Shown here: one piece after another, positions 39,560-61,036 of the stretch
Layout of the letters: every line of letters starts with the position of its first letter
Position numbering within the stretch: the stretch's first letter is position 1
Assembly (NCBI GenBank): GCA_029781975.1
Contig: JAKOVQ010000003.1
Span: 188,034-252,033 of the forward strand
Origin: Acidobacteriota bacterium
Lineage (GTDB): Bacteria > Acidobacteriota > Thermoanaerobaculia > UBA5066
Direction of reading: 5' to 3'
DNA length: 64,000 nt
The notes under the pieces: model-generated
The model's database searches: none
Told to the model about the DNA's origin: nothing
The model's input: the letters and a program-made list of their open reading frames with translations, nothing else
Made by a program: the position numbers and the translations under genes

Positions 39560-42187
39560 ATGCCCGTCGTCCGGTTCACGCTGAACGGCCTCCCGGCCGA
39601 GGCCCGCTTCGAGGAGGGGATGCACTTCCTCGAGGTCCTCCGCGAGGAGTGCGGCGTCACGTCCGCCAAGGACGGCTGCGCCCCGCAGGGGTTCTGCGGC
39701 TGCTGCACGGTCCTCGTCGACGGGCGTCCCGCCCTGGCGTGCCTGGCGAAGCCCGAGAGGATGGAGGGGAAGAGCGTCGTCACGCTCGAGGGGGTCCCGG
39801 AGGCGGAGCGGCAGCTCCTGGCCCGCGCCTTCGTCGCCGAGGGGGCGATCCAGTGCGGCTTCTGCACGCCCGGGATCGTCGTCCGCGGGAGCGCCCTCCT
39901 GGCGGCCGGCACCGCGTCCGACGAGGAGTCGGTCCGCCACGCCCTCTCCGCCCACTTCTGCCGCTGCACGGGCTACAACCGGATCGTCGACGCCGTCACC
40001 GCCGCCGGGGCGGCCCGGGAGGGGAGGCGCGAGCTCCCCCCGCCGGAGGAGGGGCCGTCGCGCCCGGGGGAGTCGGCGCCGCACTACCGCGGCGAGGAGA
40101 TGGCCCTGGGCGCGAAGAAGTACGCGGCCGACCTGACGGCGCCCGGGATGCTCCACGCGGCGTTCGTCCTCTCGCCCCACCCGCGCGCCCTCCTCCGCGG
40201 GATCGACCCCTCCGCGGCCCTCGCCTCCGAGGGCGTCGTCCGGGTCCTGACGGCCGCCGACGTCCCGGGCGAGAGGTTCGTCGGCCTCATCGTCAGGGAC
40301 TGGCCCGTCCTCGTCGCGGTGGGGGAGGAGACGCGCTGCGTCGGGGACGTCGTCGCCGTGGTGGTGGCGGACACCCCGTTCCGCGCGCGGAAGGGGGCCG
40401 CGCTCGTGAAGGTCGACGCCGAGCCGCTCCCCCCGGTGACGAGCCCCGAGGAGGCGCTCGCCGAGGGGGCCCCGGCCCTCCACCCGAAGGGGAACCTCCT
40501 CGAGGTCTGCTCCTTCTCGCGGGGCGACGTCGACGCGGCGCTCGCCGCCTCCGCGCACGTCGTGCGGCGGACCTTCCGGACGCAGCGGATCGAGCACGCC
40601 TTCCTCGAGCCGGAGGCGTGCCTGGCGGTCCCCGCGGACGACGGGACCCTCCACCTCTACTCGCAGGGGCAGGGGGTCCACGACGACCAGCTCCAGGTGG
40701 CGGCCGTCCTCGGCGTGGCGCGCGAGAGGGTCCGCGTCGAGCTCGTCTCCGCCGGGGGCGCGTTCGGCGGGAAGGAGGACCTCTCGGTCCAGGCGCAGAC
40801 GGCCCTCGCCGCCTTCGTCCTGGGGCGGCCGGTGAGGACGGTCCTGACCCGGGACCAGTCGATCCTGCTCCATCCCAAGCGCCACCCGCTCACCCTCGAC
40901 TACACCGTCGGCTGCGACGCCGAGGGGCGGCTGACGGCGGTGAGGGCGCGAATCGTCGGCGACACGGGGGCCTACGCGTCGGTGGGGATGAAGGTCCTCG
41001 AGCGCGCCGCCGGCCACTCGTGCGGCCCGTACCGGGTCCCGAACGTCGACGTCGAGGCACGGACGGTCTACACGAACAACCCGCCGTCGGGCGCGATGCG
41101 CGGCTTCGGCGCCAACCAGGCGTCGTTCGCGATCGAGGGGATGCTGGACGTCCTCGCGGCCGAGGTGGGGCTCGACGGCTACGACATCCGCGAGCGGAAC
41201 GTCCTCGTCCCCGGCGACCGCTTCGCCACCGGCCAGCTGATGGACGAGAGCTGCGGCGTCCTGGCGACGCTCCGGGCGGTGCGCGAGGTCTACAAGGGGG
41301 CCCGCTACGCCGGGATCGCCTGCGGCATCAAGAACACCGGGATCGGGAACGGGATGCAGGACGTCGGCCGCGTCGTCCTGAAGGTCCTCCCCGGCGGGCG
41401 GCTCGAGGTGGTGACCGGCTACACGGAGATGGGGCAGGGGCTCTTCACGGTCCTCCGCCAGGTCGTCTCGGGCGAGACGGGGCTCCCCGTCGGCGCGATG
41501 AACGTGACGACGCGGAGCGACCTCGCCGTCCTCTCGGGGATGACGACCGCCTCGCGCGCGACGGTCCTCGCCTCGACGGCGGCGGCCTTCGCGGCGCGCG
41601 AGCTGGCCGCGGAGCTCCGGGCGGCGCCCCTCTCCGCGCTGGCGGGGCGCGAGTTCGCGGGCGAGTTCGTCTGCGACTTCACGACGAGGCCGGGCGAGGC
41701 GACGGAGAACCCGCGGACCCACATGACGTTCGGGTACGCGACGCAGGTCGTGGTCCTCGGCGACGACGGGCGGCTTGCGCGCGTCGTCGCCGCCCACGAC
41801 GTGGGACGCGCGATGAACCCGCAGCAGTGCGCGGGACAGATCGAAGGAGCGGTCCACATGGGGCTCGGCTACGCGCTCTCGGAGGAGCTGGTGGTGGAGG
41901 GGGGGCGTCCCGTCTCGACGCGGCTCCGCGACCTCGGGATCCTGAAGGCGGCCGACATGCCGCGCGTCGACGTGATCCTCGTCGAGGTGCCCGACCGCGT
42001 CGGCGCCCACGGGGCCAAGGGGGTCGGCGAGATCGGCCTCGTCCCGACGGCGGGGGCCGTCGCGGGGGCGCTCTTCGCGTTCGACGGGAAGCGGCGGACG
42101 GTCCTCCCGATGAGCGACGCGCCGGCGGCGCGCCCCTCGGTCCCGAGGTCGCGAACGGCCCGCGAGGGCGTGGAGGTGAGGGCGTGA
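39560..42187 (+). CDS. xdh: Xanthine dehydrogenase family molybdoenzyme, selenium-dependent type ([2Fe-2S] domains fused to Mo-binding domain; XdhD-like)
   Basis: CAPQGFCGCCTV, QCGFCTPG, CRCTGY; Mo domain motifs EHAFLEPE, GGAFGGKE, AMRGFG, EMGQG, TTASR and the catalytic GAKGVGE. Confidence 0.85.
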   Translation: MPVVRFTLNGLPAEARFEEGMHFLEVLREECGVTSAKDGCAPQGFCGCCTVLVDGRPALACLAKPERMEGKSVVTLEGVPEAERQLLARAFVAEGAIQCGFCTPGIVVRGSALLAAGTASDEESVRHALSAHFCRCTGYNRIVDAVTAAGAAREGRRELPPPEEGPSRPGESAPHYRGEEMALGAKKYAADLTAPGMLHAAFVLSPHPRALLRGIDPSAALASEGVVRVLTAADVPGERFVGLIVRDWPVLVAVGEETRCVGDVVAVVVADTPFRARKGAALVKVDAEPLPPVTSPEEALAEGAPALHPKGNLLEVCSFSRGDVDAALAASAHVVRRTFRTQRIEHAFLEPEACLAVPADDGTLHLYSQGQGVHDDQLQVAAVLGVARERVRVELVSAGGAFGGKEDLSVQAQTALAAFVLGRPVRTVLTRDQSILLHPKRHPLTLDYTVGCDAEGRLTAVRARIVGDTGAYASVGMKVLERAAGHSCGPYRVPNVDVEARTVYTNNPPSGAMRGFGANQASFAIEGMLDVLAAEVGLDGYDIRERNVLVPGDRFATGQLMDESCGVLATLRAVREVYKGARYAGIACGIKNTGIGNGMQDVGRVVLKVLPGGRLEVVTGYTEMGQGLFTVLRQVVSGETGLPVGAMNVTTRSDLAVLSGMTTASRATVLASTAAAFAARELAAELRAAPLSALAGREFAGEFVCDFTTRPGEATENPRTHMTFGYATQVVVLGDDGRLARVVAAHDVGRAMNPQQCAGQIEGAVHMGLGYALSEELVVEGGRPVSTRLRDLGILKAADMPRVDVILVEVPDRVGAHGAKGVGEIGLVPTAGAVAGALFAFDGKRRTVLPMSDAPAARPSVPRSRTAREGVEVRA

Positions 42188-47128: not shown

Positions 47129-48313
47129 TCAGAAGCTGCCGGTCACCGTGTCCGCGACGTTCAGCTCGTTGACGAACGGGCGGTGGCCGGGTCGCTCGTG
47201 CTGGAGGATCCACATCGAGGCGAGGTCCGGCGAGTAGATGTCGTCGTTGCCGACGCCGAAGTCGTCGGAGATCTGGACCGTCAGGTCTCCCTCGAACGTC
47301 CGCGCGTTCTCCGGGACCCGGAAGTTCGTCAGGTAGAGCCGGACGCCGTGGACGCCGCCGATCATGGCGCGGAACGCGCGGGGGACCGACGTGTCGTGCG
47401 TGAAGGTCGAGAAGGGGATGTCGGTGGTCAGCCAGAGGAGGCGCCAGTCGATCACGCCCGACGGGACCATCGCCTGGACCTGCCGGACGATCTCCGCCCG
47501 GAACGAGGCGACCGCGGTCCGGTAGGTGGCGGTCGCCTTCGCCATCTCGCAGAGGACGGAGCCTGGGGTGTGGACGAACGGCGTCCCGCTCCCGAGCATG
47601 AACCGCGTGATCATGCTCTGGCCGAGCGGACCCGTCCCGTAGAGCTCCTCGAACGCCGTCCGCCAGATCGCCTCCAGCCGCGTGTCGGGCTGGACCCGGA
47701 GGGCCTCGAACGCGAGCTGCGGGAACGCCCCGCGCGTCTGCGGGTTCGCCGGGTGGTCGTTGAACTGCATGTCCTCCTCGCCCGGGTCGCCCACCACGTA
47801 CCGGCTGCTCTGGCCGATCAGGAAGGGGACGGAGGACGGGGGGACGATCTTCAGCCCGTCGGGCCGGGTCGGCTTCGGAGGCGGGGGGTCGTCCGGGATC
47901 TCGTGCGGGATGTGCGGCCGCGGCGGCCGCGGCGTCGGCGGCCCCGGCGGCCGGGGCGCCGGCGGGAGCGGTGAGGGGTTCGGGTGGGGAGGCGGCCACG
48001 GGACGTCGGGGGGCGCCGGCCTGCCGGCGAAGAAGGCGTCCATCCGACCCAGCGTCTTCGTCCCCGCGATCCCGTCGGGCTTCAGCCCCTCCTTCGTCTG
48101 GTACTGCCTGACGGCGCGCGCCGTCTCGTCGCCGTAGATCCCGTCGGGGAAGCCGTACTTCATCGAGACCGGGAGCTCGTATCCGAGGTCGGCCAGCGCC
48201 TGCTGGAGGATCGCGACCCCCTTGCTCGTCTCGTAGACCGCCATCGGGGGCCGGTTCTCGGAGGCGGACTGGAGGCGGGCGTTCCCGGCGAACCGAGCGG
48301 AGCGTAGTGCCAC
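47129..48313 (-). CDS. Peptidoglycan-binding domain + Pro-rich linker + DUF3289 (YPO3983)-like domain protein
   Basis: GGAGG RBS. PG_binding_1 (VAILQQALADLGY...DGIYGDETARAVRQYQ...GLKPDGIAGTKTL). C-terminal motifs MIT..GTPF, IDW, DDFGVGNDDI, WILQ, RPF match my recollection of the DUF3289 consensus. Confidence 0.7.
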   Translation of the reverse strand: MALRSARFAGNARLQSASENRPPMAVYETSKGVAILQQALADLGYELPVSMKYGFPDGIYGDETARAVRQYQTKEGLKPDGIAGTKTLGRMDAFFAGRPAPPDVPWPPPHPNPSPLPPAPRPPGPPTPRPPRPHIPHEIPDDPPPPKPTRPDGLKIVPPSSVPFLIGQSSRYVVGDPGEEDMQFNDHPANPQTRGAFPQLAFEALRVQPDTRLEAIWRTAFEELYGTGPLGQSMITRFMLGSGTPFVHTPGSVLCEMAKATATYRTAVASFRAEIVRQVQAMVPSGVIDWRLLWLTTDIPFSTFTHDTSVPRAFRAMIGGVHGVRLYLTNFRVPENARTFEGDLTVQISDDFGVGNDDIYSPDLASMWILQHERPGHRPFVNELNVADTVTGSF

Positions 48314-48626
48314 GGCGACCTCCCGCGCGTCCTGCGCGCTTCGGCGAATCGCCTCGACGACGGGTCCGCGTACGTAGCGGGCCGGCGACGTCGCATGGGA
48401 GGAGAGCCGTCCGGGCGAGGCGTCTGGTTTCCCGGAGATTCCGTCTCGGCGGGACCGGGAGTCAAGCGCGGAAGGGCGCCGGAGGACGTTCGCGTGCGCC
48501 GCGTCACCGGACCGGAGAGGTCGGGGACCGCGTCCGGAGGAGGAAGGACGAGGGCGCGTCGCATCAGATCGCGTGACGAATTCGCATCATGGACGCCTCG
48601 AATCGGCCCGGCGTACCGTTCCTGCG

Positions 48627-50555
48627 ATGGTGGGCCTCGTCCCGGTCCCGTTTGCCGTGCTGCTCCGGCGGCTCGCCGCCGAGGGGCGCCGGGGCGGTTC
48701 CGTCTACGGCCTCCCGGCCACCTCGTGGTGGGTCCCGGCCCCGGGCCTCGACCTCTCCGCGACGCTGCCTGGCGGGCCGGCCGCCACCCCCGTCGGTCCC
48801 GCCGACGGACCGCAGACGCAGCTCGCCGCGAACGTCGTCGTGGCCTGGCTCGCCGGGGGGCGCGTGGTCGAGCTGCGGACGGTCGAGGAAGGGGCACGGA
48901 GCCCCGCCGCGGCCCGGACGATCCACGCGGCAGGCGCCGTCCTGAGGACCGAAGGGGGGGCGGGGCTGGAGCCCGAGGCGGCCCTCCGCGAGTACGCGAA
49001 GGCCGCCTGCCTCGTCGAGGTCCTGAGGGCGACGCGGGCCTTCGGGAGGCTCGACGCCTCGGCGCTCGACACCCTTTTCGACGCCGGCGTCCGCGGAGAC
49101 CTCGAGGGGATCTCCTCCCCCGCCGTTCAGGGCTTCCTCGACGGCCTGGCCGACCCCACGGCGCTCTACGACGAGCTGCGGGAGGAGGTCCCCGACGACC
49201 TCGCCGCGTGGCGCGACCTCTCGCCCCCCGTTCCGCTCGCCTCGTCGATCACCTTCGAGCCGTCGCGGGGCTGTCCCGGGGACGAGGTGGAGCCGGTGCT
49301 CCGCCACCTGATGACGCGCGGGCTCGCGGTGTGGCTGAAGCTCTCCCCGGCGCTCCTGGGCCGCGAGGCGGTGGAGGAGCTCCTGCACCGGCGGCTCGGC
49401 TACCGGCAGCTGGCGCTCCTCCCGGACGCGTTCGACGACGGCCTCGCGTGGGACGAGACGGTTCCGCTGATCGAGCGGCTGAGGGAGACCTCGCGCGCGA
49501 CCGGCGTCCCGTTCGGGGTCAAGCTCGCCCGTCCGCTCCCGGTCCGCCGGGACCCCGCCCTCTTCCCGTCCGCCACCGGGACGGCGCTGGAGCTGTCGGG
49601 GCCGCCGCTCCACCTCCTCGCCCTGGCCCTTCTCGAGAGGCTCCGCGCGGCCGTCGGGCCCGACCTCCCCGTCTCCTTCTCCGCCGGAGCCGACGCGGGG
49701 AACCTCGCTGACACGCTCGCCTGCGGCGTCGCGCCCGTGACGCTCGGCGAGGATCTCCTGAAGCCGGGGGGCGCGGGGCGCCTCGCCCTCGCCCTCCGCG
49801 CGCTGGAGGCGGCGATGTCCGCCGCCGGTGCCCGCACCCTCCCGGAGCTCCTCCGCGCGGCGCCGCGGGACGCCGGCGCGTTCGCCGCGGCGGTGGCGGC
49901 CTCTCCCCGTTACCGGGCCGCGGCGGCCGGCGGCGCGCCCGGGGAGGAGGCGGCTTCGCTCCCCGTCCACGACTGCTCCGGCTGCGACGTCTGCCTCTCG
50001 GTCTGCCCGAACGCGGCCTTCTTCACCTACCGCTCGGAGCCCGTCGAGGTCGTGACCGTCCTGGCGACGGCCGCCCCCGGAGGCCGCGTGACCCTGGGGC
50101 CCGGCCGGGGCTTCGTCATTCGCGGCTCCGAGCAGACGGCCGTCGTGGCGGACCTCTGCGACGACTGCGGCAGCTGCGTCCCGTTCTGCCCGGAGGAGGG
50201 GGAGCCCCAGCACGTGAAGGAGCGGGTCTTCCTCGGCCTGGGCGCGTGGGAGGCGCTCCCCCCGCGCGACGGCTACCTCCGCGAGGGGAACGGGCTGCGC
50301 GCCCGGCTCCGCGGCGTCGAGCTCCGCTTCGTCCCCGACCCCGCGAACGACCGGGCCGTCGTGAGCGGCGGCGGCCTCGAGCTCCTCTTCACCCTCTCGG
50401 GCCTCGAGCTCCTTGAGGCCCGCTCCGGCCGTCCGGGCGCCTCTTTCGACACGGCGGACGCGTGGCTGATGCGGATGGTCTGGCGCGGGCTCCTCGAGTC
50501 GGAGGCCCCGAGCTGGGTCGACCCCGACCCGGCCCGGGCGGAGGTGCGGGTGTGA
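48627..50555 (+). CDS. YgfK N-terminal-like (DHOD-like barrel) + 2x[4Fe-4S] protein; active-site motifs degenerate
   Basis: TPVGPADGPQTQL, GCPGDEVE, KLSPALLG, GVKL, SGPPLH, DLLKPGG scaffold; ferredoxin motifs CSGCDVCLSVCP and CDDCGSCVPFCP. Confidence 0.75.
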   Translation: MVGLVPVPFAVLLRRLAAEGRRGGSVYGLPATSWWVPAPGLDLSATLPGGPAATPVGPADGPQTQLAANVVVAWLAGGRVVELRTVEEGARSPAAARTIHAAGAVLRTEGGAGLEPEAALREYAKAACLVEVLRATRAFGRLDASALDTLFDAGVRGDLEGISSPAVQGFLDGLADPTALYDELREEVPDDLAAWRDLSPPVPLASSITFEPSRGCPGDEVEPVLRHLMTRGLAVWLKLSPALLGREAVEELLHRRLGYRQLALLPDAFDDGLAWDETVPLIERLRETSRATGVPFGVKLARPLPVRRDPALFPSATGTALELSGPPLHLLALALLERLRAAVGPDLPVSFSAGADAGNLADTLACGVAPVTLGEDLLKPGGAGRLALALRALEAAMSAAGARTLPELLRAAPRDAGAFAAAVAASPRYRAAAAGGAPGEEAASLPVHDCSGCDVCLSVCPNAAFFTYRSEPVEVVTVLATAAPGGRVTLGPGRGFVIRGSEQTAVVADLCDDCGSCVPFCPEEGEPQHVKERVFLGLGAWEALPPRDGYLREGNGLRARLRGVELRFVPDPANDRAVVSGGGLELLFTLSGLELLEARSGRPGASFDTADAWLMRMVWRGLLESEAPSWVDPDPARAEVRV

Positions 50556-51952
50556 GGACGCGGTTCGTCAACCTCCGCCTCCCCGCGGGAGGCGACGCGA
50601 CCGCGCCCTCCGAGCTCCTCGTCGAGGGGCCGCTCTTCTCCCGGATCGGCCGCGCGGGGGAGATCCCCGCGCCGGAAGGGACGGTGACGGTCGACCTGGG
50701 AGGCGCCCTCGTCCTGCCGGGCGTGATCGACGGGCACGTCCACTTCGACGACCCCGGCTTCACGCACCGCGAGACGTTCGCCACCGGGACGCGCGCGGCC
50801 GCGGCCGGCGGGGTGACGTGCGTCGTCGACATGCCGTGCACGTCGCTCCCGCCGGTGACGAGCGCGGAGCGCCTCGCCGGCAAGCTCGCGGCGGTCGCGC
50901 CGAAGGCGCACGTCGACTACATGATGTGGGGCGGCGTCTCGGGCAACGCCGTCGCGGAGGGGGACTGGCGGCGCGACGTGGCCGGGCTCGCCGGCGCGGG
51001 CGTCGCCGCGTTCAAGCTCTACATGCTCTCGGGGATGGAGACGTTCCGCGACCTGACGCCGGAGGAGCTCCGCGAGGCGCTCGCGGCCGCCGCCGCGGCC
51101 GGGGTGCCGGCCGGCGTCCACGCCGAGGCGAAGGGAGAGGTGCTCGAGAGGACGGAGCGCCTCCGCGACGGGGGGCACGACGGCCCGCTCGCCTACGCCG
51201 ACTCCCGCCCCGCCGCCGTCGAGGTCTCGGCCGTGAAGCTCCTCGCGTCCCTGGCGCGGGAGACCGGCGCGCGGGCGCACGTCGTCCACGTGGCGGCCGG
51301 CGACGCGCTCGACGCCGTGGCCGAGGCCCGCCGCTCGGGCGTGGCCCTCTCGGCCGAGACGTGCCCCCACTACCTCGCCTTCACGCGCGACGACCTCGAG
51401 GCGCAGGGGTCGGTCCTGAAGACGGCGCCCGTCGTGAAGGGGGCCGCCGACCGCGACCGGCTCTGGCGCGGCCTCGCGAGCGGCGACGTCCAGCACGTGG
51501 CCACCGACCACGCCGCCGGGGAGTGGCCGCGCGAGAAGACGACCGGGTCGATCTGGACCGACTACGGGGGCGTCCCCGGCGTGGAGCTGCTCCTCCCGTT
51601 CCTCTTCTCGGAGGGAGTGGGGAAGGGACGGGTCACGCTGGAGCGCCTCACCGAGCTCCTCTCGGCGGCCCCGGCCCGCTTCTTCGGCGTGGCGTCGCGG
51701 AAGGGGCGGATCGCCGAGGGGCTCGACGCCGACTTCACCGTCCTCGACGACGGGGCGGCCTTCACGGTCCGCGCGGAGGAGCTCCACAACCTGAACCGGT
51801 ACACCCCGTTCGAGGGGTGGAGCCTCACCGGACGCGTGCGGCAGACCTGGGTGCGCGGGACGAGGGTCTTCGCGCGGGCGGACGACGGGAGCGAGAGCTT
51901 CGGTCCCGCAGGGGGGGGCCGCTTCGTCAGGCGGCAGGAGCCGACGGGATGA
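50552..51952 (+). CDS. Allantoinase/dihydropyrimidinase-family cyclic amidohydrolase
   Basis: GTG overlaps the previous stop; IDGHVHFDDPG, AGGVTCVVDMP, FKLYM, VHAE, HVVH, ETCPHYL, ATDHA, GRIAEGLDADF. Confidence 0.88.
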   Translation: MRTRFVNLRLPAGGDATAPSELLVEGPLFSRIGRAGEIPAPEGTVTVDLGGALVLPGVIDGHVHFDDPGFTHRETFATGTRAAAAGGVTCVVDMPCTSLPPVTSAERLAGKLAAVAPKAHVDYMMWGGVSGNAVAEGDWRRDVAGLAGAGVAAFKLYMLSGMETFRDLTPEELREALAAAAAAGVPAGVHAEAKGEVLERTERLRDGGHDGPLAYADSRPAAVEVSAVKLLASLARETGARAHVVHVAAGDALDAVAEARRSGVALSAETCPHYLAFTRDDLEAQGSVLKTAPVVKGAADRDRLWRGLASGDVQHVATDHAAGEWPREKTTGSIWTDYGGVPGVELLLPFLFSEGVGKGRVTLERLTELLSAAPARFFGVASRKGRIAEGLDADFTVLDDGAAFTVRAEELHNLNRYTPFEGWSLTGRVRQTWVRGTRVFARADDGSESFGPAGGGRFVRRQEPTG

Positions 51953-53310
51953 TCCAGAAGAGGACGCTGATCGGGAACGGGACGGTCGTCACGGGCGGGG
52001 CGCGCCCGCAGATCGTGCCGCAGGGGGCGGTGCTGATCTCGGGCGGCCGCGTCGAGGCCGTCGGGGAGATGGAGGCGCTGGAAGGACGCGCGCGGGACGC
52101 CTGGCTCCTCGACGCCCGCGGCGGCCTCATCCTGCCGGGCTTCGTCAACCTCCACCACCACTTCTACTCGGCGCTGGCCCGCGGGCTCGACCCGGGGTTC
52201 CGCCCGTCGGGGTTCGCCGACGTCCTCCGCCAGCTCTGGTGGAGGCTCGACCGGGCGCTCGACCGGGACTCCGTCCGCCTCTCGGCGCTCCTGACCCTCG
52301 CCGACTGCATCCGGTGGGGCTGCACGACGGTCTTCGACCACCACGCCTCGCCCTCCTGCATCCCCGGCATCCTCGACGTCCTCGCCGGCGCGGTGGAGGA
52401 GGCCGGCCTCTCGGCCGTCCTCTGCTACGAGGTGACCGACCGGAACGGCGCCGCCGCCGCGCGCGCGGGGCTCGAGGAGAACCTCCGCTTCCTCTCGGGG
52501 CGGGACGCCGGGCGGGTCCGCGGGGCCCTCGGCCTCCACGCCAGCTTCACGCTCCGCGACGAGACGCTGGCGGAGGCGGGGCGCCGCCGCCCCGCGGGCG
52601 CCGCGTGTCACGTCCACGTGGCCGAGGACCCCGTCGACGTCGCCTTCTCCGTCGAGACCTTCGGCGCCGGGCCGATCGCGCGGCTCGACCGCGCGGGGCT
52701 CCTCGACGAACGGACGATCGTCGCGCACGGCATCCACCTCCCCGAGGCCGAGCTCGACCTCGCCATCCGCCGCGGGGCGGTCCTCGTCCACAACCCCGAG
52801 TCGAACATGAACAACGGCGTGGGGCGGTTCGACCCGCTCGCGGCCGCCGAGCGCGGCGCCACCATCGGCCTCGGGACCGACGGGATGTCCTCCTCGATGC
52901 TCCGGGCCCTGCGGGCGGCCTTCCTCGCCCTGCGCGACGGGCGCCGCGACCCGGGGGCCGGCTTCACCGTCCTCCCCGGCCTCCTCCTGTCGAACGCCCT
53001 CCTCGCCCGCCGCCTCCTCGACGAGCCCCACCTGGGCGAGCTCGTCCCCGGCGCTCCGGCGGACGTCGCGGTCGTCGACGCACCGCCGCCGACCCCGCTC
53101 ACCGTCGCGAACCTCTTCGGGCACCTCGTCTACGGCGCCGCCGAGGCACCCGTCCGCCACACCGTCGCCCGCGGCGTCGTCCTCATGGAGAACTTCCAGC
53201 TCACCACGCTCGACCCCGCCGCGCTCGCCGCCGAGGCGCGACGGACGGCGCCCGACGTCTGGAGGCGCTTCGCCGCCCTCGACGCCCGGACCCCGTTCGT
53301 CGCCCCCTGA
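51949..53310 (+). CDS. ssnA: SsnA-type aminohydrolase
   Basis: LPGFVNLHHHFYSALARG, LWWRLDRALD, GCTTVFDHHAS, HNPESNMNNGVG, LGTDG. Confidence 0.85.
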   Translation: MIQKRTLIGNGTVVTGGARPQIVPQGAVLISGGRVEAVGEMEALEGRARDAWLLDARGGLILPGFVNLHHHFYSALARGLDPGFRPSGFADVLRQLWWRLDRALDRDSVRLSALLTLADCIRWGCTTVFDHHASPSCIPGILDVLAGAVEEAGLSAVLCYEVTDRNGAAAARAGLEENLRFLSGRDAGRVRGALGLHASFTLRDETLAEAGRRRPAGAACHVHVAEDPVDVAFSVETFGAGPIARLDRAGLLDERTIVAHGIHLPEAELDLAIRRGAVLVHNPESNMNNGVGRFDPLAAAERGATIGLGTDGMSSSMLRALRAAFLALRDGRRDPGAGFTVLPGLLLSNALLARRLLDEPHLGELVPGAPADVAVVDAPPPTPLTVANLFGHLVYGAAEAPVRHTVARGVVLMENFQLTTLDPAALAAEARRTAPDVWRRFAALDARTPFVAP

Positions 53311-53350: not shown

Positions 53351-54838
53351 GTGACCGACCCGAACCGAGACGCCGTCCGCAGCCGCGCCGTCGCGCGCTG
53401 CCGCCAGAAGGGAATCCTGATCCCGCGGATCGCCGAGCAGCGCGACCCGTCGCTCGTCGACCCGGCCGTGGCCGCGCTCCTCCCGGGAGTCGACATGCAG
53501 GCCGTCGACCCGCTCAACCTCTTCCGGATCACCTGGCACAACGACCCCGCGACGGGCGGGTTCGGGCCGGTCGACGCCCTCGAGCTCCCGTCCGCGCTCA
53601 CCGGGGTCCCGGCCCGGATCGCCGGCCTCGTCGGGAAGCACTTCCCGACCGGGGCGCACAAGGTGGGGGCGGCGTTCGGCTGCCTCGTCCCGCGGCTCGT
53701 CAGCGGGGAGTTCGACCCGACCTCGCAGAAGGCGGTCTGGCCGTCGACGGGGAACTACTGCCGCGGGGGGGCGTTCGACAGCGCGCTCCTCGGCTGCACC
53801 GCGCTGGCCATCCTCCCGGAGGAGATGAGCCGGGAGCGGTTCGACTGGCTCGCCTCGATCGGCGCCGAGATCCTCGCGACCCCCGGCTGCGAGAGCAACG
53901 TGAAGGAGATCTTCGACGCCTGCTGGGACATCAAGAAGACGCGGAAGGACTGCGTCGTCTTCAACCAGTTCGAGGAGTGGGGGAACTACCTCTGGCACTG
54001 GTCGGTCACGGCCGCCGCTGCCGAGGAGGCGTTCGGCCGGCTCCCGGGGGAGCACAAGCGCTTCGCGGCCTGGGTCGGCGCGACGGGGTCGGCCGGGACC
54101 CTCGCGGCCGGGGACGGCCTGAAGCAACGCTTCGCGGGCCTGACCGTCACCGCGGCCGAGGCGCTCCAGTGCCCCACGCTCCTCCTCAACGGCTTCGGCG
54201 GCCACCGGATCGAGGGGATCGGCGACAAGCACGTCCCCTGGATCCACAACGCCAGGAGCACCGACCTCGTGACGGCGGTCGACGACGAGGCGGCCCTCCG
54301 CGTCTTCCGCCTCTTCAACGAGCCCGCGGGGCAGGCGGTGCTCGCACGGCGCGGCGTCGCGCCCGAGGTCGTCGAGCGGCTGCCGCTCCTCGGGATCTCG
54401 AGCGTCTGTAACGTCCTGGCGGCGATCCGGACCGCCCGCTGGTACGAGCTGGGGAGCGAGGACGTCCTCCTCACCTCGTTCACCGACTCCTCGTCGCTCT
54501 ACCTGACCCGCCTGGCCGAGATGACGAAGGAGCGGGGCCCGCTGTCCGAGGCGCGGGCCGAGGCCGACTTCGACCGGTTCCTCCTCGGCTGCTCCCCCGC
54601 CGACACGCGCGAGCTGACCTACCCCGACCGCAAGGCGATCCACAACCTGAAGTACTTCACCTGGGTCGAGCAGCAGGGGAGGACCGTGGACGAGCTGAAC
54701 GCCCTCTGGTCCCCCTCGTTCTGGACCGACCTGCAGCAGCAGCTCCCCGAGTGGGACCGCGCCATCGACGCCTTCAACGCGGAGAGCGGCGCGCTCGAGA
54801 TCGTGAAGCTCCGCGCGGCCGTCGCGGCCGGCGCGTGA
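53351..54838 (+). CDS. Uncharacterised fold-type II PLP-dependent enzyme (495 aa)
   Basis: FPTGAHKVG (PLP Lys), PSTGNYCRG, GSAGTL phosphate loop, HRIEGIGDKH. Confidence 0.8.
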   Translation: MTDPNRDAVRSRAVARCRQKGILIPRIAEQRDPSLVDPAVAALLPGVDMQAVDPLNLFRITWHNDPATGGFGPVDALELPSALTGVPARIAGLVGKHFPTGAHKVGAAFGCLVPRLVSGEFDPTSQKAVWPSTGNYCRGGAFDSALLGCTALAILPEEMSRERFDWLASIGAEILATPGCESNVKEIFDACWDIKKTRKDCVVFNQFEEWGNYLWHWSVTAAAAEEAFGRLPGEHKRFAAWVGATGSAGTLAAGDGLKQRFAGLTVTAAEALQCPTLLLNGFGGHRIEGIGDKHVPWIHNARSTDLVTAVDDEAALRVFRLFNEPAGQAVLARRGVAPEVVERLPLLGISSVCNVLAAIRTARWYELGSEDVLLTSFTDSSSLYLTRLAEMTKERGPLSEARAEADFDRFLLGCSPADTRELTYPDRKAIHNLKYFTWVEQQGRTVDELNALWSPSFWTDLQQQLPEWDRAIDAFNAESGALEIVKLRAAVAAGA

Positions 54839-54864: not shown

Positions 54865-56109
54865 ATGACGACGACGACCGGGACGGCGGCGAAGACCTCG
54901 GGAGCCGAGGCCCTCGCGGCCGCGCGCCTCCACCAGGACGACATCGTGAGGTTCCTCCGCGACCTGATCGCGATCCCCGCCGAGAGCGGGAAGGAGCGGG
55001 CTCGCTGCCACCGGGTGAAGGACGAGTACGACAGGCTCGGCCTCGACGAGACCTGGTTCGACGGCCTCGGGACGGTGGTCGCGCGCGTGGGGAACGGTCC
55101 CCTGAAGGTCCTGATGGACGGCCACATCGACTGCGTCGGCATCGGGGACCCGGCCTCCTGGGCGTTCGACCCGTTCGAGGGGAAGCTGGAGGACGGGAAG
55201 GTCTTCGGGAGGGGAGCCGTCGACGAGCTCCCCGCCATCGCCTGCATGGCGTACGGCGCGAAGCTCCTCAAGGAGAGGGGCGTCCCGCCCGAGCTGACGG
55301 TCTACCTCTCGGCGTCCGTCCTCGAGGAGGACCTCGACGGCCACTGCCTCCTCCACCTGATCGGGAAGGAGGGTCTCCGCCCCGACGCCGTCGTCCTGGG
55401 CGAGCCGACCGGCCTCGACGTCTACCGCGGGCACCGCGGCCGGATGGAGATGACCATCACGACCCGGGGGGTGGCGGCCCACGGCGCCCACGCGCAGCGG
55501 GGCGTGAACGCCCTCTACAAGGCGGCGCCGATCATCCTCGACGTCGAGAGGCTGAACGGCACGCTCCGGACCGACCCGTTCCTCGGGAAGGGGTCGATCA
55601 TCGTCTCGTACGTCGACGTGAAGACCCCCTCGATGTGCGCCGTCCCCGACCGGGCGACGATCTACCTGGACCGGCGCCTCACCGCGGGCGAGACGATCGA
55701 GACGGCCCTCGCGGAGGTGAAGGCCCTTCCGCACCTCGGCGACGCCGAGGTGGCCGTCCGGTCGTACGAGGGGACTGCCTGGACCGGGAAGAAGGTCGAG
55801 CAGGAGGCCTACTACCCGACCTGGGTCCTCCCCGAGGAGCACCCGCTCGTCCGGGGGACCGTCCAGGCCGTGGAGGCCGTCCTCGGGAGGAAGCCGAAGG
55901 TCTCCCGCTGGCACTTCTCGACGAACGGCGTCGCGTCGATGGGGCGCCTCGGCATCCCGTCGATCGGCTTCGCGCCGGGGCTCGAGGAGCTCTCCCACTC
56001 GACGGACGAGTGGGTCGCCGTCGACGACCTGGTGAAGGCGACAGCCGTCTACTCCCTCCTCCCCGAGACCCTCGCCGTCCTCGCCTCCGAGCTGAAGGCG
56101 AAGGGCTGA
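54865..56109 (+). CDS. ygeY: YgeY-family M20 hydrolase
   Basis: LMDGHIDCVG, GRGAVDE, SVLEED, GEPT, YRGHRGR, STNGV, GFAPGLEELSH. Confidence 0.85.
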   Translation: MTTTTGTAAKTSGAEALAAARLHQDDIVRFLRDLIAIPAESGKERARCHRVKDEYDRLGLDETWFDGLGTVVARVGNGPLKVLMDGHIDCVGIGDPASWAFDPFEGKLEDGKVFGRGAVDELPAIACMAYGAKLLKERGVPPELTVYLSASVLEEDLDGHCLLHLIGKEGLRPDAVVLGEPTGLDVYRGHRGRMEMTITTRGVAAHGAHAQRGVNALYKAAPIILDVERLNGTLRTDPFLGKGSIIVSYVDVKTPSMCAVPDRATIYLDRRLTAGETIETALAEVKALPHLGDAEVAVRSYEGTAWTGKKVEQEAYYPTWVLPEEHPLVRGTVQAVEAVLGRKPKVSRWHFSTNGVASMGRLGIPSIGFAPGLEELSHSTDEWVAVDDLVKATAVYSLLPETLAVLASELKAKG

Positions 56110-56131: not shown

Positions 56132-57271
56132 ATGCAGACCTCCTCCCTCGAACGGCCCGTCCTCGAGCCCGCCGTCCTCGACCGCCTCTTCGGGCGGAGC
56201 CTCCTCCTGACCGACGACTACGACCAGACGGAGCTCGGGGCGCTCCTCGCCGTCGCGGCCCGCCTCGCGGCGCTCGACCGGGCCGGGACGAAGACCCCGT
56301 TCCTGCCCCACGAGCTCGCCTACGCCCTCTTCTTCGACAACTCGACGCGGACGAAGTCCGCCTGGGCCGGCGCCGCCGCCCGGCTCGGCATGCAGCCCGT
56401 CATCGTCGACGGCTCCTCGACGCAGATCGCCCACGGCGAGACGGCCGTCGAGACCGGCGCGATGCTCGGGATGAACGCCCACGCCCTCGGGGTCCGCCAC
56501 GACCTGATCCTCGGCGAGGGGAACTCCTTCATGCGCGACGTCAGGAAGGGGATCGACGACTACCTCGCGGCGACGGGCGACCCCCGGAAGGTCCCGATCG
56601 TCAACCTCCAGTGCGACGTCGACCACCCGACGCAGACGCTCGCCGACCTCTGCTGGCTCCTGGAGCGGTTCCCGGAGGGGCTCTCGGGGAAGCGGATCGC
56701 GATGTCGTGGGCCTACTCGCCCAGCTACGCCAAGCCCCTCTCCGTCCCGCAGGGGATCGCCATGCTGATGACCCGCTTCGGGGCGCACGTCACGCTGGCT
56801 CACCCCGACGGGTACTCTCTGATGGAGCCGTGCCTCGCGTCGGCGGCGCGGCACGCCGCCGAGTCGGGGGGCTCGTTCCGCGTCGTCGACTCGATGGACG
56901 AGGCCTTCCGCGACGCCGACGTCGTCTACCCCAAGAGCTGGGGGCCATACGACCTGATGCTCGAGCGCGTCGCCGCGAACCGGGCCCGCGACGCGAAGGC
57001 GATGGGGGAGATCGAGCGCCGCGCCCTCGAGCGGAACGCCCGGCACCGCGACTGGATCTGCGACGAGCGGCGGATGGCGCTGACGAAGGGGGGCGACGCC
57101 CTCTACATGCACTGCCTGCCGGCGGACATCGGAGCCGAGGTGTCGCCCGGCGTCATGGCGCGCCACACCGTGAACGTCGCCCGCGAGGCGAGCTGGAAGG
57201 TCCACGTGATCATGGCGCTCCTGGCGACGGCGAAGGTGCCGAACCTGGCGGAGAAGCTCGCGGCGGCGTGA
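56132..57271 (+). CDS. ygeW: YgeW-family knotted carbamoyltransferase
   Basis: FFDNSTRT, STQIAHGET, HPTQTLAD, SWAYSPSYAKPLSVPQG (YgeW signature), PKSW, MHCLPAD. Confidence 0.88.
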   Translation: MQTSSLERPVLEPAVLDRLFGRSLLLTDDYDQTELGALLAVAARLAALDRAGTKTPFLPHELAYALFFDNSTRTKSAWAGAAARLGMQPVIVDGSSTQIAHGETAVETGAMLGMNAHALGVRHDLILGEGNSFMRDVRKGIDDYLAATGDPRKVPIVNLQCDVDHPTQTLADLCWLLERFPEGLSGKRIAMSWAYSPSYAKPLSVPQGIAMLMTRFGAHVTLAHPDGYSLMEPCLASAARHAAESGGSFRVVDSMDEAFRDADVVYPKSWGPYDLMLERVAANRARDAKAMGEIERRALERNARHRDWICDERRMALTKGGDALYMHCLPADIGAEVSPGVMARHTVNVAREASWKVHVIMALLATAKVPNLAEKLAAA

Positions 57272-57290
57272 GCCCGCCGGCCAGGGGGCC

Positions 57291-59794: not shown

Positions 59795-61036
59795 GTGGCC
59801 CGATTCACCCTGGTCTGCAACGAATGCGGGCGGCGGCTCGACGAGGACCGCACCCTCTACGTCTGTCCGTCCTGCGCGCGGAAGCAGGAGCCGGGCGGGC
59901 CGACCCGCGGCGTCCTGGCGACGGAGATCGCCGAGGAGGACCTCCCGCGCCGCTGGCCCTCCGCGCGCCTCGAGGACCCGCAGGCGCTGGCGGTGTTCCT
60001 CCCGGTCCGGGGCCCCGGGTCGTTCTTCTCCTTCGCGGCGGGCGGCACCCCGCTCCTGCCGGTCCCGCGGCTCAGGCGCGAGCTCGGGATGCCGCGCCTC
60101 TTCGTCAAGGACGACACGCGCAACCCCTCGGGCTCGACGAAGGACCGCGCCTCGGCGCTCGTCGTCGCCAAGGCGATCGAGTACGGCTACGACACGGTGG
60201 CCGCCGCCTCCACCGGGAACGCGGCGACCGCGCTGGCGGCGGCAGGCGCGGCGGCGGGCGTGAAGACCGTCGTCTTCGTCCCCGCGACGGCCCCTCCGGC
60301 CAAGCTCGTCCAGATGGCGAGCTACGGGGCCCAGGTCGTCCCCGTCGCGGGGAGCTACGACCAGGCCTTCGAGCTCTCGCTGGCGGCGTGCGCCCGCTTC
60401 GGCTGGTACAACAGGAACACGGCGCTGAACCCCTTCACGGTGGAAGGGAAGAAGACGGCGGCCCTGGAGGTCGCGCGCGACCTCGCTCCCGAGGAGCCGG
60501 ACGCCGTCGTCGTGCCGACGGGCGACGGGGTCATCCTCGCGGGGGTCGCGAAGGGCTTCGCGGACCTCGTCCGCTGCGGTCTCCTCCGGAGGCTGCCGCG
60601 GCTCGTCTGCGTCCAGCCGGAGGGGTCGGGGGCGATCGCCCGGGCGCTGCGGTCGGGCGCCGCGGCCATCACCCCGGAGCCGTCCGCCTCGAGCGTGGCC
60701 GACAGCCTGACGGTGGCCGCGCCGCGGAACGCGGTCCTCTGCCTGAAGGAGGTGCGCGCGTCGAAGGGGGCGGGCGTCCTCGTCGGCGACGAGGCGATCC
60801 TCGACGCCATCCCCCGGCTGGCGGCGGCGACCGGGCTCTTCGCCGAGCCCGCGGCTGCGACCGCGCTGGCGGGCCTCCTCGCCGCGCTGGAGGAGGGGCT
60901 CGTCGACCGGGAGGAGCGGGTGGTCCTCCTCGTGACCGGGACGGGGCTCAAGGACGTGCCGGCGGCCGCGCGGCGCGCGAGGATCGGCCCTCCGGTCGAG
61001 CCGACCCTCGACGCGGTGGCGGCGGCCCTCTCGTAG
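59795..61036 (+). CDS. thrC: Threonine synthase-like PLP enzyme with N-terminal Zn ribbon
   Basis: CNEC..CPSC; GGTPL; NPSGSTKDR; ASTGNAA; EGKKT; VPTGDG; EPAAA; VTGTGLKD. Confidence 0.82.
   Translation: MARFTLVCNECGRRLDEDRTLYVCPSCARKQEPGGPTRGVLATEIAEEDLPRRWPSARLEDPQALAVFLPVRGPGSFFSFAAGGTPLLPVPRLRRELGMPRLFVKDDTRNPSGSTKDRASALVVAKAIEYGYDTVAAASTGNAATALAAAGAAAGVKTVVFVPATAPPAKLVQMASYGAQVVPVAGSYDQAFELSLAACARFGWYNRNTALNPFTVEGKKTAALEVARDLAPEEPDAVVVPTGDGVILAGVAKGFADLVRCGLLRRLPRLVCVQPEGSGAIARALRSGAAAITPEPSASSVADSLTVAAPRNAVLCLKEVRASKGAGVLVGDEAILDAIPRLAAATGLFAEPAAATALAGLLAALEEGLVDREERVVLLVTGTGLKDVPAAARRARIGPPVEPTLDAVAAALS

What the first reader, a model, noticed from the sequence alone, without database searches (positions are those of the whole stretch)
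39560..61036. Variant anaerobic purine/urate degradation system with non-orthologous replacements
Xdh(D)-like, YgfK-like, SsnA, YgeY and YgeW are core members of the E. coli ygeWXY-hyuA / ygfK-ssnA-xdhD anaerobic urate pathway. Here HyuA appears replaced by an allantoinase-like amidohydrolase. YgeX (diaminopropionate ammonia-lyase) is absent; an uncharacterised 495-aa PLP enzyme sits in the operon and a threonine-synthase-like enzyme lies nearby. No FAD subunit (YgfM), carbamate kinase or YqeB/YqeC/SelD gene is in the window. This looks like a distinct version of the pathway in a non-gut lineage, with candidate new enzymes.
Basis: partly seen in the sequence, partly recalled or inferred. Interest (0 to 1): 0.72.

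Follow-up and report, generated by a model that had tools for sequence, protein, structure and literature searches.

The report
Environmental variant of reductive urate pathway
This anaerobic-digester bacterium carries a widespread but undescribed environmental version of the recently solved anaerobic urate-degradation gene cluster, in which the final enzyme YgeX is missing and two uncharacterised vitamin-B6 (PLP) enzymes appear in its place.

Summary
The window encodes a Se-XDH-type molybdenum hydroxylase and a tight six-gene operon: short YgfK, allantoinase-like hydrolase, SsnA, a 495-aa PLP enzyme (PLP495), YgeY and YgeW. A threonine-synthase-like PLP enzyme lies nearby. No YgeX, FAD subunit, carbamate kinase or YqeB/C is in the window. 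The flagged span also holds three unrelated genes: a subtilase, a peptidoglycan-binding protein and a Ser/Thr kinase.

The same eight genes lie contiguous and in the same order in Verrucomicrobiota and Gemmatimonadota MAGs. PLP495 occurs in at least 591 species genomes from more than 15 phyla. Of 40 well-flanked PLP495 loci, 30 carry pathway genes, and some carry a UacT-like urate permease.

PLP495 sits beside a genuine diaminopropionate ammonia-lyase in three clusters. The ThrC-like enzyme never co-occurs with YgeX in 169 loci, and it lacks the conserved Arg of the threonine-synthase motif. So the ThrC-like enzyme is the better YgeX substitute, and PLP495, which has a CysK-like fold, is an extra step of unknown function.

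The YgfK homologue lacks the NAD(P)H/FAD module. I rate this a new variant of a known pathway.

The parts
39560..42187 (+). 875-aa molybdenum hydroxylase with fused N-terminal 2x[2Fe-2S] domains, of the Se-dependent XDH family (XdhAC-like architecture). Probable urate/2,8-dioxopurine oxidoreductase. No FAD subunit is nearby.
   Evidence: Pfam Fer2_2, Ald_Xan_dh_C, MoCoBD_1 and MoCoBD_2. TIGR03311 919 bits against a cut-off of 830. 65-66% identical to XDH genes that lie directly upstream of short ygfK in L003, L004 and L011.
48573..50555 (+). Short YgfK (660 aa): the YgfK N-terminal (putative FMN/substrate) domain plus a C-terminal 2x[4Fe-4S] ferredoxin domain. The central GltD-like NAD(P)H/FAD module is absent.
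   Evidence: TIGR03315 matches only profile positions 5-452 of 1012. E. coli YgfK aligns at residues 7-392 and 905-989 only. Fer4 hits at residues 465-541. The same short form (659-738 aa) occurs in L003, L004, L007, L008, L011, L019, L041 and L050.
50552..51952 (+). Allantoinase-like cyclic amidohydrolase in the HyuA position. Probable ureidomethyl-hydantoin hydrolase.
   Evidence: TIGR03178 371.6 against 357.85; D-hydantoinase TIGR02033 256 against 393. 31% identical to E. coli HyuA. GTGA start overlap with ygfK and ATGA overlap with ssnA. Orthologues 59-62% identical sit in the same slot in L003, L004 and L011.
51949..53310 (+). SsnA-family aminohydrolase (ring opening of dihydro-2,8-dioxopurine).
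   Evidence: NF005540 435.9 bits against a cut-off of 444, and TIGR03314 412.8. 37% identical to E. coli SsnA over residues 3-441.
53351..54838 (+). PLP495: an uncharacterised, very conserved fold-type-II PLP enzyme. It has a CysK/CBS-like core with an N-terminal extension of about 90 aa and a helical C-terminal extension of about 130 aa. The PLP lysine lies in FPTGAHKVGAAFG.
   Evidence: Weak PALP hit of 49 bits. CysK model 80 bits against a cut-off of 351, and no DAP-lyase hit. AF2 pLDDT 90, with CysK, CBS and beta-cyanoalanine synthase as top Foldseek hits at TMt about 0.8. 55-83% identical across phyla. Linked to pathway genes.
54865..56109 (+). YgeY-family M20 hydrolase (ureido-group hydrolysis).
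   Evidence: NF009555 451.8 bits against a cut-off of 321. 44% identical to E. coli YgeY. The likely ATG at 54865 has a GAGGAG ribosome-binding site.
56132..57271 (+). YgeW-type knotted carbamoyltransferase (phosphorolysis of a ureido group to carbamoyl phosphate).
   Evidence: NF005538 379.6 bits against a cut-off of 453. 51% identical to E. coli YgeW.
59795..61036 (+). ThrC-like PLP enzyme with an N-terminal CxxC...CxxC zinc ribbon. A cassette member and a probable functional substitute for YgeX.
   Evidence: 71% identical to the cassette-linked copy in L001. It lies next to or near PLP495 on the same strand in 32 loci. The family has T, M or L (0 of 27 Arg) where solved threonine synthases have the Arg of NPxR(I/L)EGQKT. 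It never occurs with YgeX. AF2 pLDDT 93.5, threonine-synthase fold.

Best explanation
The window carries an environmental variant of the reductive urate (2,8-dioxopurine) degradation pathway that was worked out in E. coli and Clostridium in 2025. My proposed step-by-step assignment follows.

(1) The FAD-less Se-XDH-type Mo enzyme reduces urate to 2,8-dioxopurine. This is inferred from family and synteny.

(2) The short YgfK dearomatises 2,8-dioxopurine. It keeps the catalytic N-terminal domain and the Fe-S clusters but has no NAD(P)H/FAD module. It must therefore draw electrons from ferredoxin or another Fe-S partner, as has been suggested for C. difficile UacX. The domain loss is shown here; the electron donor is inferred.

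(3) SsnA opens the pyrimidine ring to ureidomethyl-hydantoin.

(4) An allantoinase-like hydrolase, rather than HyuA, opens the hydantoin. The substrate is allantoin with one extra CH2. This step is inferred.

(5) YgeW and YgeY remove the two ureido groups.

(6) The last step, diaminopropionate to pyruvate plus ammonia, is most likely done by the threonine-synthase-derived PLP enzyme at 59795-61036 and not by YgeX. I put this at about 0.5.

(7) PLP495 is a CysK-fold enzyme that should form an aminoacrylate from a beta-substituted alanine. It adds a step that E. coli lacks. My best guess is that it acts on albizziin or diaminopropionate, either as an alternative elimination or as handling of one stereoisomer. 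I put that specific guess at about 0.3.

The subtilase and PG-binding genes, and the kinase gene, interrupt a cassette that is contiguous elsewhere.
For: - The family assignments and tight operon spacing are.
- The published pathway and its enzyme roles come from PMC12507026 and bioRxiv 10.1101/2025.04.24.650524.
- The order XDH-ygfK(short)-allB-like-ssnA-PLP495-ygeY-ygeW-thrC-like is identical and contiguous in L003 (Akkermansiaceae) and in L004 and L011 (Gemmatimonadota). Most proteins there are 59-71% identical to the window's, short YgfK 43-46% and YgeW 36-38%.
- Of 40 PLP495 loci with at least 8 kb on both sides, 30 hold pathway genes: ThrC-like 21, YgeW 17, XDH 16, SsnA 15, YgeY 15.
- Of 22 well-flanked ThrC-like loci from metagenomes, 20 hold pathway genes.
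- UacT-like permeases 55-57% identical to the E. coli urate transporter lie in PLP495 clusters L037, L081, L160 and L163.
- YgeX plus PLP495 without ThrC-like is seen in L037, L163 and L164.
- YgeX together with ThrC-like is seen in 0 of 169 loci.
- The ThrC-like family lacks the threonine-synthase Arg.
- PLP495 keeps the CysK Asn-loop (STGN), QF motif, Gly-rich phosphate loop and conserved Ser, and it has the CysK fold.
Against: - No enzyme here has been assayed.
- The Mo enzyme is not an XdhD orthologue, and its regiochemistry cannot be read from sequence. XdhD Glu606 lies in an insertion that this clade lacks.
- XDH is 6.4 kb away from the operon, and the ThrC-like gene is separated from it by an opposite-strand kinase gene.
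- No carbamate kinase, YqeB/C or SelD is in the window, and the rest of the genome could not be searched. A canonical ygeX or hyuA elsewhere is therefore not excluded.
- The YgeX/ThrC-like alternation rests on only two or three independent YgeX+PLP495 lineages. By chance alone the probability is roughly 0.1.
- The ThrC-like enzyme just passes the TIGR00260 threonine-synthase cut-off (170.6 against 167.1).
- 10 of the 40 well-flanked PLP495 loci show no pathway gene within 10 kb.
Confidence: 0.7

Rival explanations
1. PLP495 is the non-orthologous diaminopropionate ammonia-lyase that replaces YgeX, and the ThrC-like enzyme is peripheral.
For: PLP495 sits inside the operon between ssnA and ygeY. 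It is a fold-type-II PLP enzyme of the beta-eliminating CysK type. It is linked to the pathway genes in many phyla.
Against: PLP495 coexists with a bona fide DAP ammonia-lyase (NF006058, 305 bits against a cut-off of 276) in L037, L163 and L164, so it is not simply an alternative to YgeX. The ThrC-like enzyme is the one that is never seen with YgeX.
Confidence: 0.15
2. The cassette degrades a related but different N-heterocycle, not urate. Candidates are another oxopurine, or a 2-amino/guanidino analogue whose beta-guanidino- or beta-ureido-alanine product needs PLP495. The XDH would then feed in a different substrate.
For: The Mo enzyme belongs to a different clade from XdhD. PLP495 is an extra enzyme that the urate pathway does not need in vitro. 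The Chloroflexota loci carry only the lower half (hydantoinase, YgeW, carbamate kinase, both PLP enzymes) together with an ABC importer.
Against: UacT-like urate permeases (55-57% identity) are embedded in several PLP495 clusters. SsnA, YgeW and YgeY are clear homologues of the urate enzymes at 37-51% identity.
Confidence: 0.12
3. The ThrC-like gene is the housekeeping threonine synthase, and its nearness to the operon is coincidental.
For: TIGR00260 170.6 bits against a cut-off of 167.1. The best PDB and Foldseek matches are threonine synthases. In the window it is separated from the operon by a kinase gene.
Against: It lies on the same strand as PLP495 in 32 of 32 loci, and within 300 bp in 11 of them. 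Of 22 ThrC-like-centred metagenome loci, 20 carry pathway genes. The invariant Arg of the threonine-synthase NPxR(I/L)EGQKT motif is replaced in all 27 members. It scores below the PRK08197 cut-off (256 against 303).
Confidence: 0.05
4. PLP495 serves sulfur or selenium handling, for example making a (seleno)cysteine-type donor for the Se-dependent Mo cofactor, rather than catabolising the carbon skeleton.
For: It has a CysK-like fold. The Mo enzyme family is annotated as selenium-dependent. In one lineage a canonical CysK (TIGR01139, 365 bits against 351) occupies the same slot next to the ThrC-like gene.
Against: It is most tightly linked to the lower-pathway genes (ThrC-like, YgeW, carbamate kinase, hydantoinase), even in Chloroflexota loci with no XDH nearby. 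It coexists with YqeB/YqeC, the known Se-cofactor markers.
Confidence: 0.05

Closest known systems
E. coli ygeW-ygeX-ygeY-hyuA-yqeA / ygfK-ssnA-ygfM-xdhD reductive urate (2,8-dioxopurine) pathway (Li et al. 2025, PMC12507026; Liu et al. 2025, bioRxiv 10.1101/2025.04.24.650524)
   Same: Homologues of SsnA (37%), YgeW (51%), YgeY (44%), the YgfK N-terminal domain (32%), a cyclic amidohydrolase and a [2Fe-2S]-Moco hydroxylase are clustered. Related clusters carry UacT, carbamate kinase and YqeB/C.
   Different: The window has no YgeX, YgfM, YqeA or YqeB/C. The Mo enzyme is TIGR03311-type, not XdhD. YgfK lacks its NAD(P)H/FAD module. HyuA is replaced by an allantoinase-like paralogue. Two extra PLP enzymes (PLP495 and ThrC-like) are present.
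C. difficile / C. sporogenes variant (XdhAC without a FAD subunit; UacX reductase without a FAD domain; UacY)
   Same: Both redox enzymes lack NAD(P)H-flavin modules, which implies ferredoxin-type electron supply. The Mo enzyme has the fused [2Fe-2S]+Moco architecture.
   Different: The reductase here is a truncated YgfK, not a PydA/UacX homologue. YgeW is kept rather than UacY. YgeX is replaced.
Threonine synthase (class I: B. subtilis 6CGQ, M. tuberculosis 2D1F, T. thermophilus 1UIM)
   Same: The ThrC-like enzyme shares the fold (Foldseek TMt about 0.8), the S-x-K-D-R PLP-lysine motif and 31-36% identity.
   Different: It has an N-terminal zinc ribbon. The conserved Arg and Gln of NPxR(I/L)EGQKT are replaced (NPFTVEGKKT). 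From memory, that Arg binds the substrate phosphate. The genomic context is catabolic.
O-acetylserine sulfhydrylase / cystathionine beta-synthase / beta-cyanoalanine synthase family (CysK-type fold-type-II PLP enzymes)
   Same: The PLP495 core superposes on these at TMt 0.75-0.84. It keeps the Asn-loop, the Gln, the Gly-rich phosphate loop and the Ser facing the pyridine N.
   Different: Identity is only 19-27%. PLP495 scores 80 bits against a cut-off of 351 on the CysK model. Its lysine motif is TrpB-like (GAHKVG). It has N- and C-terminal extensions of about 90 and 130 aa. Its context is purine catabolism.
Diaminopropionate ammonia-lyase YgeX/DpaL (TIGR03528, NF006058)
   Same: It belongs to the same PLP fold type, and its expected reaction is the one missing from the window.
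   Different: Neither window PLP enzyme hits the DAP-lyase models. tblastn with E. coli YgeX finds nothing in the window.

Membership tests
Reductive urate / 2,8-dioxopurine pathway cluster | An SsnA-family aminohydrolase (the IPR017700 marker) is present | tested here: met
   NF005540 E=1.4e-130, 435.9 bits (8 bits under the curated cut-off). The next-best family scores 163 bits. 37% identical to E. coli SsnA over its full length.
Reductive urate / 2,8-dioxopurine pathway cluster | A molybdenum hydroxylase that reduces urate to 2,8-dioxopurine (XdhD or XdhAC/DOPDH) | tested here: inconclusive
   A Moco/[2Fe-2S] enzyme is present (TIGR03311, 919 bits) and is syntenic with ygfK in L003, L004 and L011. 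It is not XdhD-type (TIGR03313, 234 bits against 1102). The XdhD E606 criterion is not transferable. Activity cannot be tested here.
Reductive urate / 2,8-dioxopurine pathway cluster | A yanthine reductase (YgfK or UacX) next to SsnA | tested here: met
   The YgfK N-terminal domain and the ferredoxin domain are present. The NAD(P)H/FAD module is absent.
Reductive urate / 2,8-dioxopurine pathway cluster | The HyuA (D-hydantoinase, IPR011778/TIGR02033) orthologue | tested here: not met
   TIGR02033 256 bits against a cut-off of 393. The best model is allantoinase TIGR03178 (371.6 against 357.85). 31% identical to HyuA.
Reductive urate / 2,8-dioxopurine pathway cluster | YgeW carbamoyltransferase and YgeY hydrolase | tested here: met
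   YgeY scores 452 bits against a cut-off of 321. YgeW scores 380 bits against 453 but is 51% identical to E. coli YgeW.
Reductive urate / 2,8-dioxopurine pathway cluster | YgeX diaminopropionate ammonia-lyase | tested here: not met
   No tblastn hit in the 64 kb and no TIGR03528 or NF006058 hit for either PLP enzyme. The rest of the genome was not searchable.
Reductive urate / 2,8-dioxopurine pathway cluster | Carbamate kinase and the Se-cofactor genes (YqeB, YqeC, SelD) in the genome | not testable with these tools
   All are absent from the window.
Threonine synthase (TIGR00260), tested for the 413-aa enzyme | HMM score above the cut-off, and the conserved NPxR(I/L)EGQKT motif | tested here: inconclusive
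   The score of 170.6 against 167.1 passes marginally. The motif Arg is T, M or L in all 27 family members, and Gln is replaced by Lys. Activity was not tested.
Cysteine synthase CysK (TIGR01139), tested for PLP495 | HMM score above the curated cut-off | tested here: not met
   79.9 bits against a cut-off of 350.95. Only the fold and the cofactor-binding motifs are shared.
Allantoinase AllB (TIGR03178), tested for the 466-aa hydrolase | HMM score above the cut-off, and an allantoin-pathway context | tested here: inconclusive
   The score passes narrowly (371.6 against 357.85). The gene is translationally coupled between ygfK and ssnA and holds that slot in four phyla. No allantoin-pathway genes are nearby.

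The most novel reading that the evidence does not exclude
PLP495 catalyses a reaction not yet described for the reductive purine pathway. Examples are elimination of urea or guanidine from a beta-ureido- or beta-guanidino-alanine, or stereochemical salvage of albizziin or diaminopropionate. Together with a threonine-synthase-derived diaminopropionate lyase and a flavin-module-less XDH/YgfK redox pair, it would define the dominant, ancestral environmental form of the pathway. The gut version (YgeX, with NAD(P)H-linked YgfK and YgfM) would then be a derived offshoot.
Probability: 0.3. Interest if true: 0.78.

Novelty: new variant of a known kind. Interest (0 to 1): 0.62.

Why it matters
The reductive urate pathway was solved only in 2025 and has been presented as enriched in host-associated microbiomes. 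A commentary (PMC12990295) lists four open questions:
- the order of ureido cleavage;
- the stereochemistry of the intermediates;
- the electron donor of the Mo enzyme;
- whether the pathway arose in the gut or was co-opted from the environment.

This cassette bears on all four.
- It shows the cluster is common in soil, sediment and digester phyla.
- It offers natural versions of both redox enzymes without NAD(P)H modules.
- It pinpoints two uncharacterised PLP enzyme families. One of them is among the most conserved unknown enzymes I have seen, at 55-83% identity across more than 15 phyla. Their substrates must be the free-amine intermediates whose identity and chirality are in dispute.
- Published neighbourhood surveys scored 'YgeX' by Pfam PF00291, which cannot tell YgeX, PLP495 and ThrC-like apart.

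Tried and rejected
- Look-up of the window's own PLP495 protein by exact sequence: not on record.
- Using Li et al.'s XdhD Glu606 as a marker of urate-to-yanthine regiochemistry: the residue lies in an XdhD-specific insertion that is absent from XdhA and from all TIGR03311-type enzymes, so it tells nothing here.
- PDB sequence search with short YgfK: no hit.
- Comparison of short YgfK with the 838-aa reductase of L001: unrelated. That protein is a DPD/PydA-like enzyme, a third reductase type.
- Literature searches for any description of PLP495 or ThrC-like enzymes in this cluster: none found.
- A search to document the phosphate-binding role of the threonine-synthase Arg found no usable paper. 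That role is therefore stated from memory only.
- I first guessed the organism was a myxobacterium, from GC content and kinase content. I dropped this because the best named PLP495 relatives are Thermoanaerobaculaceae/Acidobacteriota, and earlier notes call the genome acidobacterial (unverified).
- Co-occurrence patterns could not discriminate between candidate substrates for PLP495.

Full report
**What is in the window.** The window is about 75% G+C, so I called genes from the third-position GC frame plot and then annotated them with Pfam and NCBIfam.

The pathway-related genes are as follows.
- 39560-42187 (+): an 875-aa [2Fe-2S]-Moco hydroxylase. It scores 919 bits on TIGR03311 'selenium-dependent xanthine dehydrogenase' (cut-off 830). 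It scores only 234 bits on the XdhD model TIGR03313.
- 48573-50555 (+): a 660-aa YgfK-like protein.
- 50552-51952 (+): an allantoinase-like amidohydrolase. It scores 371.6 on TIGR03178 (cut-off 357.85) and 256 on the D-hydantoinase model (cut-off 393).
- 51949-53310 (+): SsnA.
- 53351-54838 (+): a 495-aa PLP enzyme, called PLP495 here.
- 54865-56109 (+): YgeY.
- 56132-57271 (+): YgeW.
- 59795-61036 (+): a 413-aa threonine-synthase-like enzyme.

The six genes from ygfK to ygeW are tightly spaced, at -4, -4, +40, +26 and +22 nt.

Three unrelated genes interrupt the flagged span.
- A 1634-aa secreted subtilase (42184-47088). Its GTG start overlaps the XDH stop codon.
- A PG-binding protein (47129-48313, minus strand).
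- A TPR Ser/Thr kinase (57291-59684, minus strand).

hypB follows at 61161-61835.

**What is absent.** I fetched the E. coli K-12 cluster and ran its proteins against the window with tblastn.
- Hits: YgeW 51%, YgeY 44%, SsnA 37%, HyuA 31% (on the allantoinase-like gene), and XdhA/XdhD 26-29%.
- No hits: YgeX, YqeA, YqeB, YqeC, MocA, YgfM/XdhB, UacT.

Pfam scans of every other large ORF in the 64 kb found no SelD or carbamate kinase.

**The YgfK homologue is a short form.**
- E. coli YgfK aligns only at residues 7-392 and 905-989.
- TIGR03315 matches only profile positions 5-452 of 1012.
- The full-length YgfK of L037 carries the GltD-like NAD(P)H/FAD module at residues 449-931. That block is missing here.
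- The same short architecture (659-738 aa) recurs in L003, L004, L007, L008, L011, L019, L041 and L050. In Holophaga L081 the gene is split into two.
- No FAD subunit accompanies the Mo enzyme either.

Li et al. noted the same kind of situation in C. difficile, where XdhD has no YgfM and UacX has no FAD domain. They suggested ferredoxin as the donor. The donor of XdhAC is listed as an open question.

**Is the cassette real and conserved?** PLP495 has thousands of relatives. The best 120 are 68-83% identical, and the named ones come from Thermoanaerobaculaceae, other Acidobacteriota and Gemmatimonadota. Mean column identity is 79% over 16 sequences and 63% over 40 sequences from many phyla. In a library of 1.84 billion representatives clustered at 50% identity, only 306 clusters match at E <= 1e-30, and most of those are fragments. 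The family is therefore one very tight group.

They come from Acidobacteriota, Gemmatimonadota, Verrucomicrobiota, Planctomycetota, Elusimicrobiota, Chloroflexota, Bacteroidota, Ignavibacteriota, Fibrobacterota, Myxococcota, Latescibacterota, Actinomycetota, Bacillota and others.

I clustered all the neighbouring ORFs. Of 40 loci with at least 8 kb on both sides of PLP495, 30 carry at least one pathway family:
- ThrC-like 21
- YgeW 17
- XDH 16
- SsnA 15
- cyclic amidohydrolase 15
- YgeY 15
- YgfK 12
- carbamate kinase 9
- DPD-like reductase 4

L003 (Akkermansiaceae) and L004 and L011 (Gemmatimonadota) have exactly the window's eight genes, contiguous and in the same order. Most of their proteins are 59-71% identical to the window's (short YgfK 43-46%, YgeW 36-38%). 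The window's copy has therefore been split by insertions.

Permeases 55-57% identical to the E. coli urate transporter UacT sit inside PLP495 clusters L037, L081, L160 and L163. This supports urate as the substrate, at least in those clusters.

**The ThrC-like enzyme belongs to the cassette.**
- It is 71% identical to a gene at the end of the cassette in an Acidobacteriia MAG.
- In 32 loci it lies on the same strand as PLP495. It is within 300 bp in 11 of them and within 1.5 kb in 18.
- I ran an independent scan of metagenome contigs centred on this family. Of 22 well-flanked loci, 20 carry pathway genes. Twelve carry PLP495, and three carry a canonical-looking CysK in the same slot.
- The best solved relatives are class-I threonine synthases.
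- Those three enzymes have NP(Y/V/H)R(L/I)EGQKT at the conserved motif. The window protein has NPFTVEGKKT there. All 27 aligned family members have T, M or L, and never Arg.
- From memory of the Thermus thermophilus structure, that Arg binds the phosphate of O-phosphohomoserine. I could not find a paper in the library to cite for this.

**Which PLP enzyme replaces YgeX?** L037 (Thermoanaerobaculia) encodes a bona fide diaminopropionate ammonia-lyase, scoring 305 bits on NF006058 (cut-off 276). It sits alongside PLP495, full-length YgfK, UacT, carbamate kinase, XDH and YqeB/C, and there is no ThrC-like gene.

Starting from that lyase, I looked up further contigs.
- L163 (Holophagales) and L164 show the same pattern: YgeX plus PLP495 (61-62% identical) and no ThrC-like.
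- L167 has YgeX and neither of the other two.
- L166 and L169 are the F420/luciferase-type variant, with YgeX only.

Across the 169 loci examined, YgeX and ThrC-like never occur together. PLP495 occurs with either. The number of independent YgeX+PLP495 lineages is small (two or three), so this is suggestive and not proven. The ThrC-like enzyme is the better candidate for the diaminopropionate lyase step, and PLP495 is an additional conserved function that E. coli lacks.

**What PLP495 looks like.**
- The AlphaFold model is confident (pLDDT 90, pTM 0.92).
- Its core matches O-acetylserine sulfhydrylases, cystathionine beta-synthase, beta-cyanoalanine synthase and related aminoacrylate-forming enzymes at TMt 0.75-0.84.
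- Sequence identity to those enzymes is only 19-27%, and the CysK model gives 80 bits against a cut-off of 351.
- Invariant residues include the lysine in FPTGAHKVG, the STGN carboxylate loop, NQF, the TGSxGT phosphate loop and a GxS serine.
- It has an N-terminal extension of about 90 residues and a helical C-terminal extension of about 130 residues that CysK lacks.

The only pathway intermediates with a free alpha-amino group and a beta-leaving group are albizziin (isosteric with O-acetylserine) and diaminopropionate. These are my best guesses for its substrate, but nothing computed here discriminates between them.

**Comparison with what is known.** The pathway itself is published: urate to 2,8-dioxopurine by XdhD or XdhAC, then YgfK/UacX, SsnA, HyuA, YgeW/UacY, YgeY and YgeX. 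The published variants concern the reductase (UacX, F420-dependent) and the 2-ureido cleavage (UacY).

The published SsnA neighbourhood survey scored 'YgeX' as any PF00291 protein. That cannot separate YgeX, PLP495 and ThrC-like. The other study reports enrichment in host-associated habitats. I found no paper that describes the two PLP families in this context.

This is therefore a new variant of a known pathway, not a new kind of system.

**Provenance.** The stretch is held almost completely (0.99 of sampled words) by one anaerobic-digester metagenome run. Partial matches occur in sediment, mine-drainage and soil runs. Earlier notes of this scan call the genome acidobacterial and mention a possible selenoprotein elsewhere in it. 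If true, a selenoprotein would imply that SelD is present. These are unverified leads.

Noticed in passing
window 42184-47088 (+) and 47129-48313 (-): A 1634-aa secreted subtilase (S8 + PA + PKD domains, with a signal-like N-terminus) starts with a GTG that overlaps the XDH stop codon (GTGA). Together with a PG_binding_1 protein it splits XDH from the rest of a cassette that is contiguous in other phyla.
   Followed up: partly
L106, L115, L116, L118, L124 (e.g. L116 7788-12636): Another cluster variant has the order XDH, an LldD-like FMN alpha-hydroxy-acid dehydrogenase (365 aa), a canonical-scoring CysK (TIGR01139, 365 bits against 351), ThrC-like, SsnA, YgeY, carbamate kinase and YgeW. The FMN dehydrogenase may be yet another yanthine reductase, and CysK sits in the PLP495 slot. 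These loci probably come from one lineage.
   Followed up: partly
L044 11497-12105; L045 3413-5140 (Chloroflexota loci L043-L045, L054, L057, L059, L061, L064, L065, L080): In Anaerolineae, PLP495 is followed by a conserved protein of about 200 aa (14 loci) and often by a 575-aa protein. Neither has any Pfam or NCBIfam match. Upstream lie an ABC importer of the 'B6-type', ThrC-like, YgeW and carbamate kinase. No XDH or SsnA is within 10 kb.
   Followed up: partly
L037 6479-7363; L163 3989-4870: A conserved 293-294-aa protein with no family match sits between the UacT-like permease and ygeW or the hydantoinase in Holophagae/Thermoanaerobaculia urate clusters.
   Followed up: no
L001 7314-9830 (also L002, L019, L027, L035, L121, L122, L126, L153): A third reductase type occurs in PLP495 clusters: an 838-aa DPD/PydA-like protein (GltD-like + DHOD-like + Fer4) that shows no BLAST similarity to the window's short YgfK. 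L019 carries both types.
   Followed up: partly
L081 44-2215 and 2083-3336: In a Holophaga MAG, YgfK is split into a 723-aa N-terminal gene and a separate 417-aa GltD-like gene. This looks like an intermediate between the long and short forms.
   Followed up: no
window 37239-38749 (+): An Lrp/AsnC regulator and an EamA-family transporter lie just upstream of XDH, beyond a divergent CxxCxxCC-domain gene at 38787-39404 (minus strand). They could be the local regulator and exporter or importer. An EamA gene also follows yqeC in L166.
   Followed up: no
window 281-9120 (-): ArsP_2 permease, a radical-SAM protein and DUF134 come first. They are followed by a Rieske / cytochrome b / multihaem cytochrome c unit flanked by two sigma-54 activators. 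Both activators are 41-50% identical to the AAA+ part of E. coli YgeV, which I take to be generic family similarity.
   Followed up: no
window 56132-57271 compared with L003, L004 and L011: The window's YgeW is closer to E. coli YgeW (51%) than to the carbamoyltransferase in the otherwise syntenic L003, L004 and L011 cassettes (36-38%). The latter resemble the L001 type. So two carbamoyltransferase subfamilies are exchanged within the same cassette.
   Followed up: no
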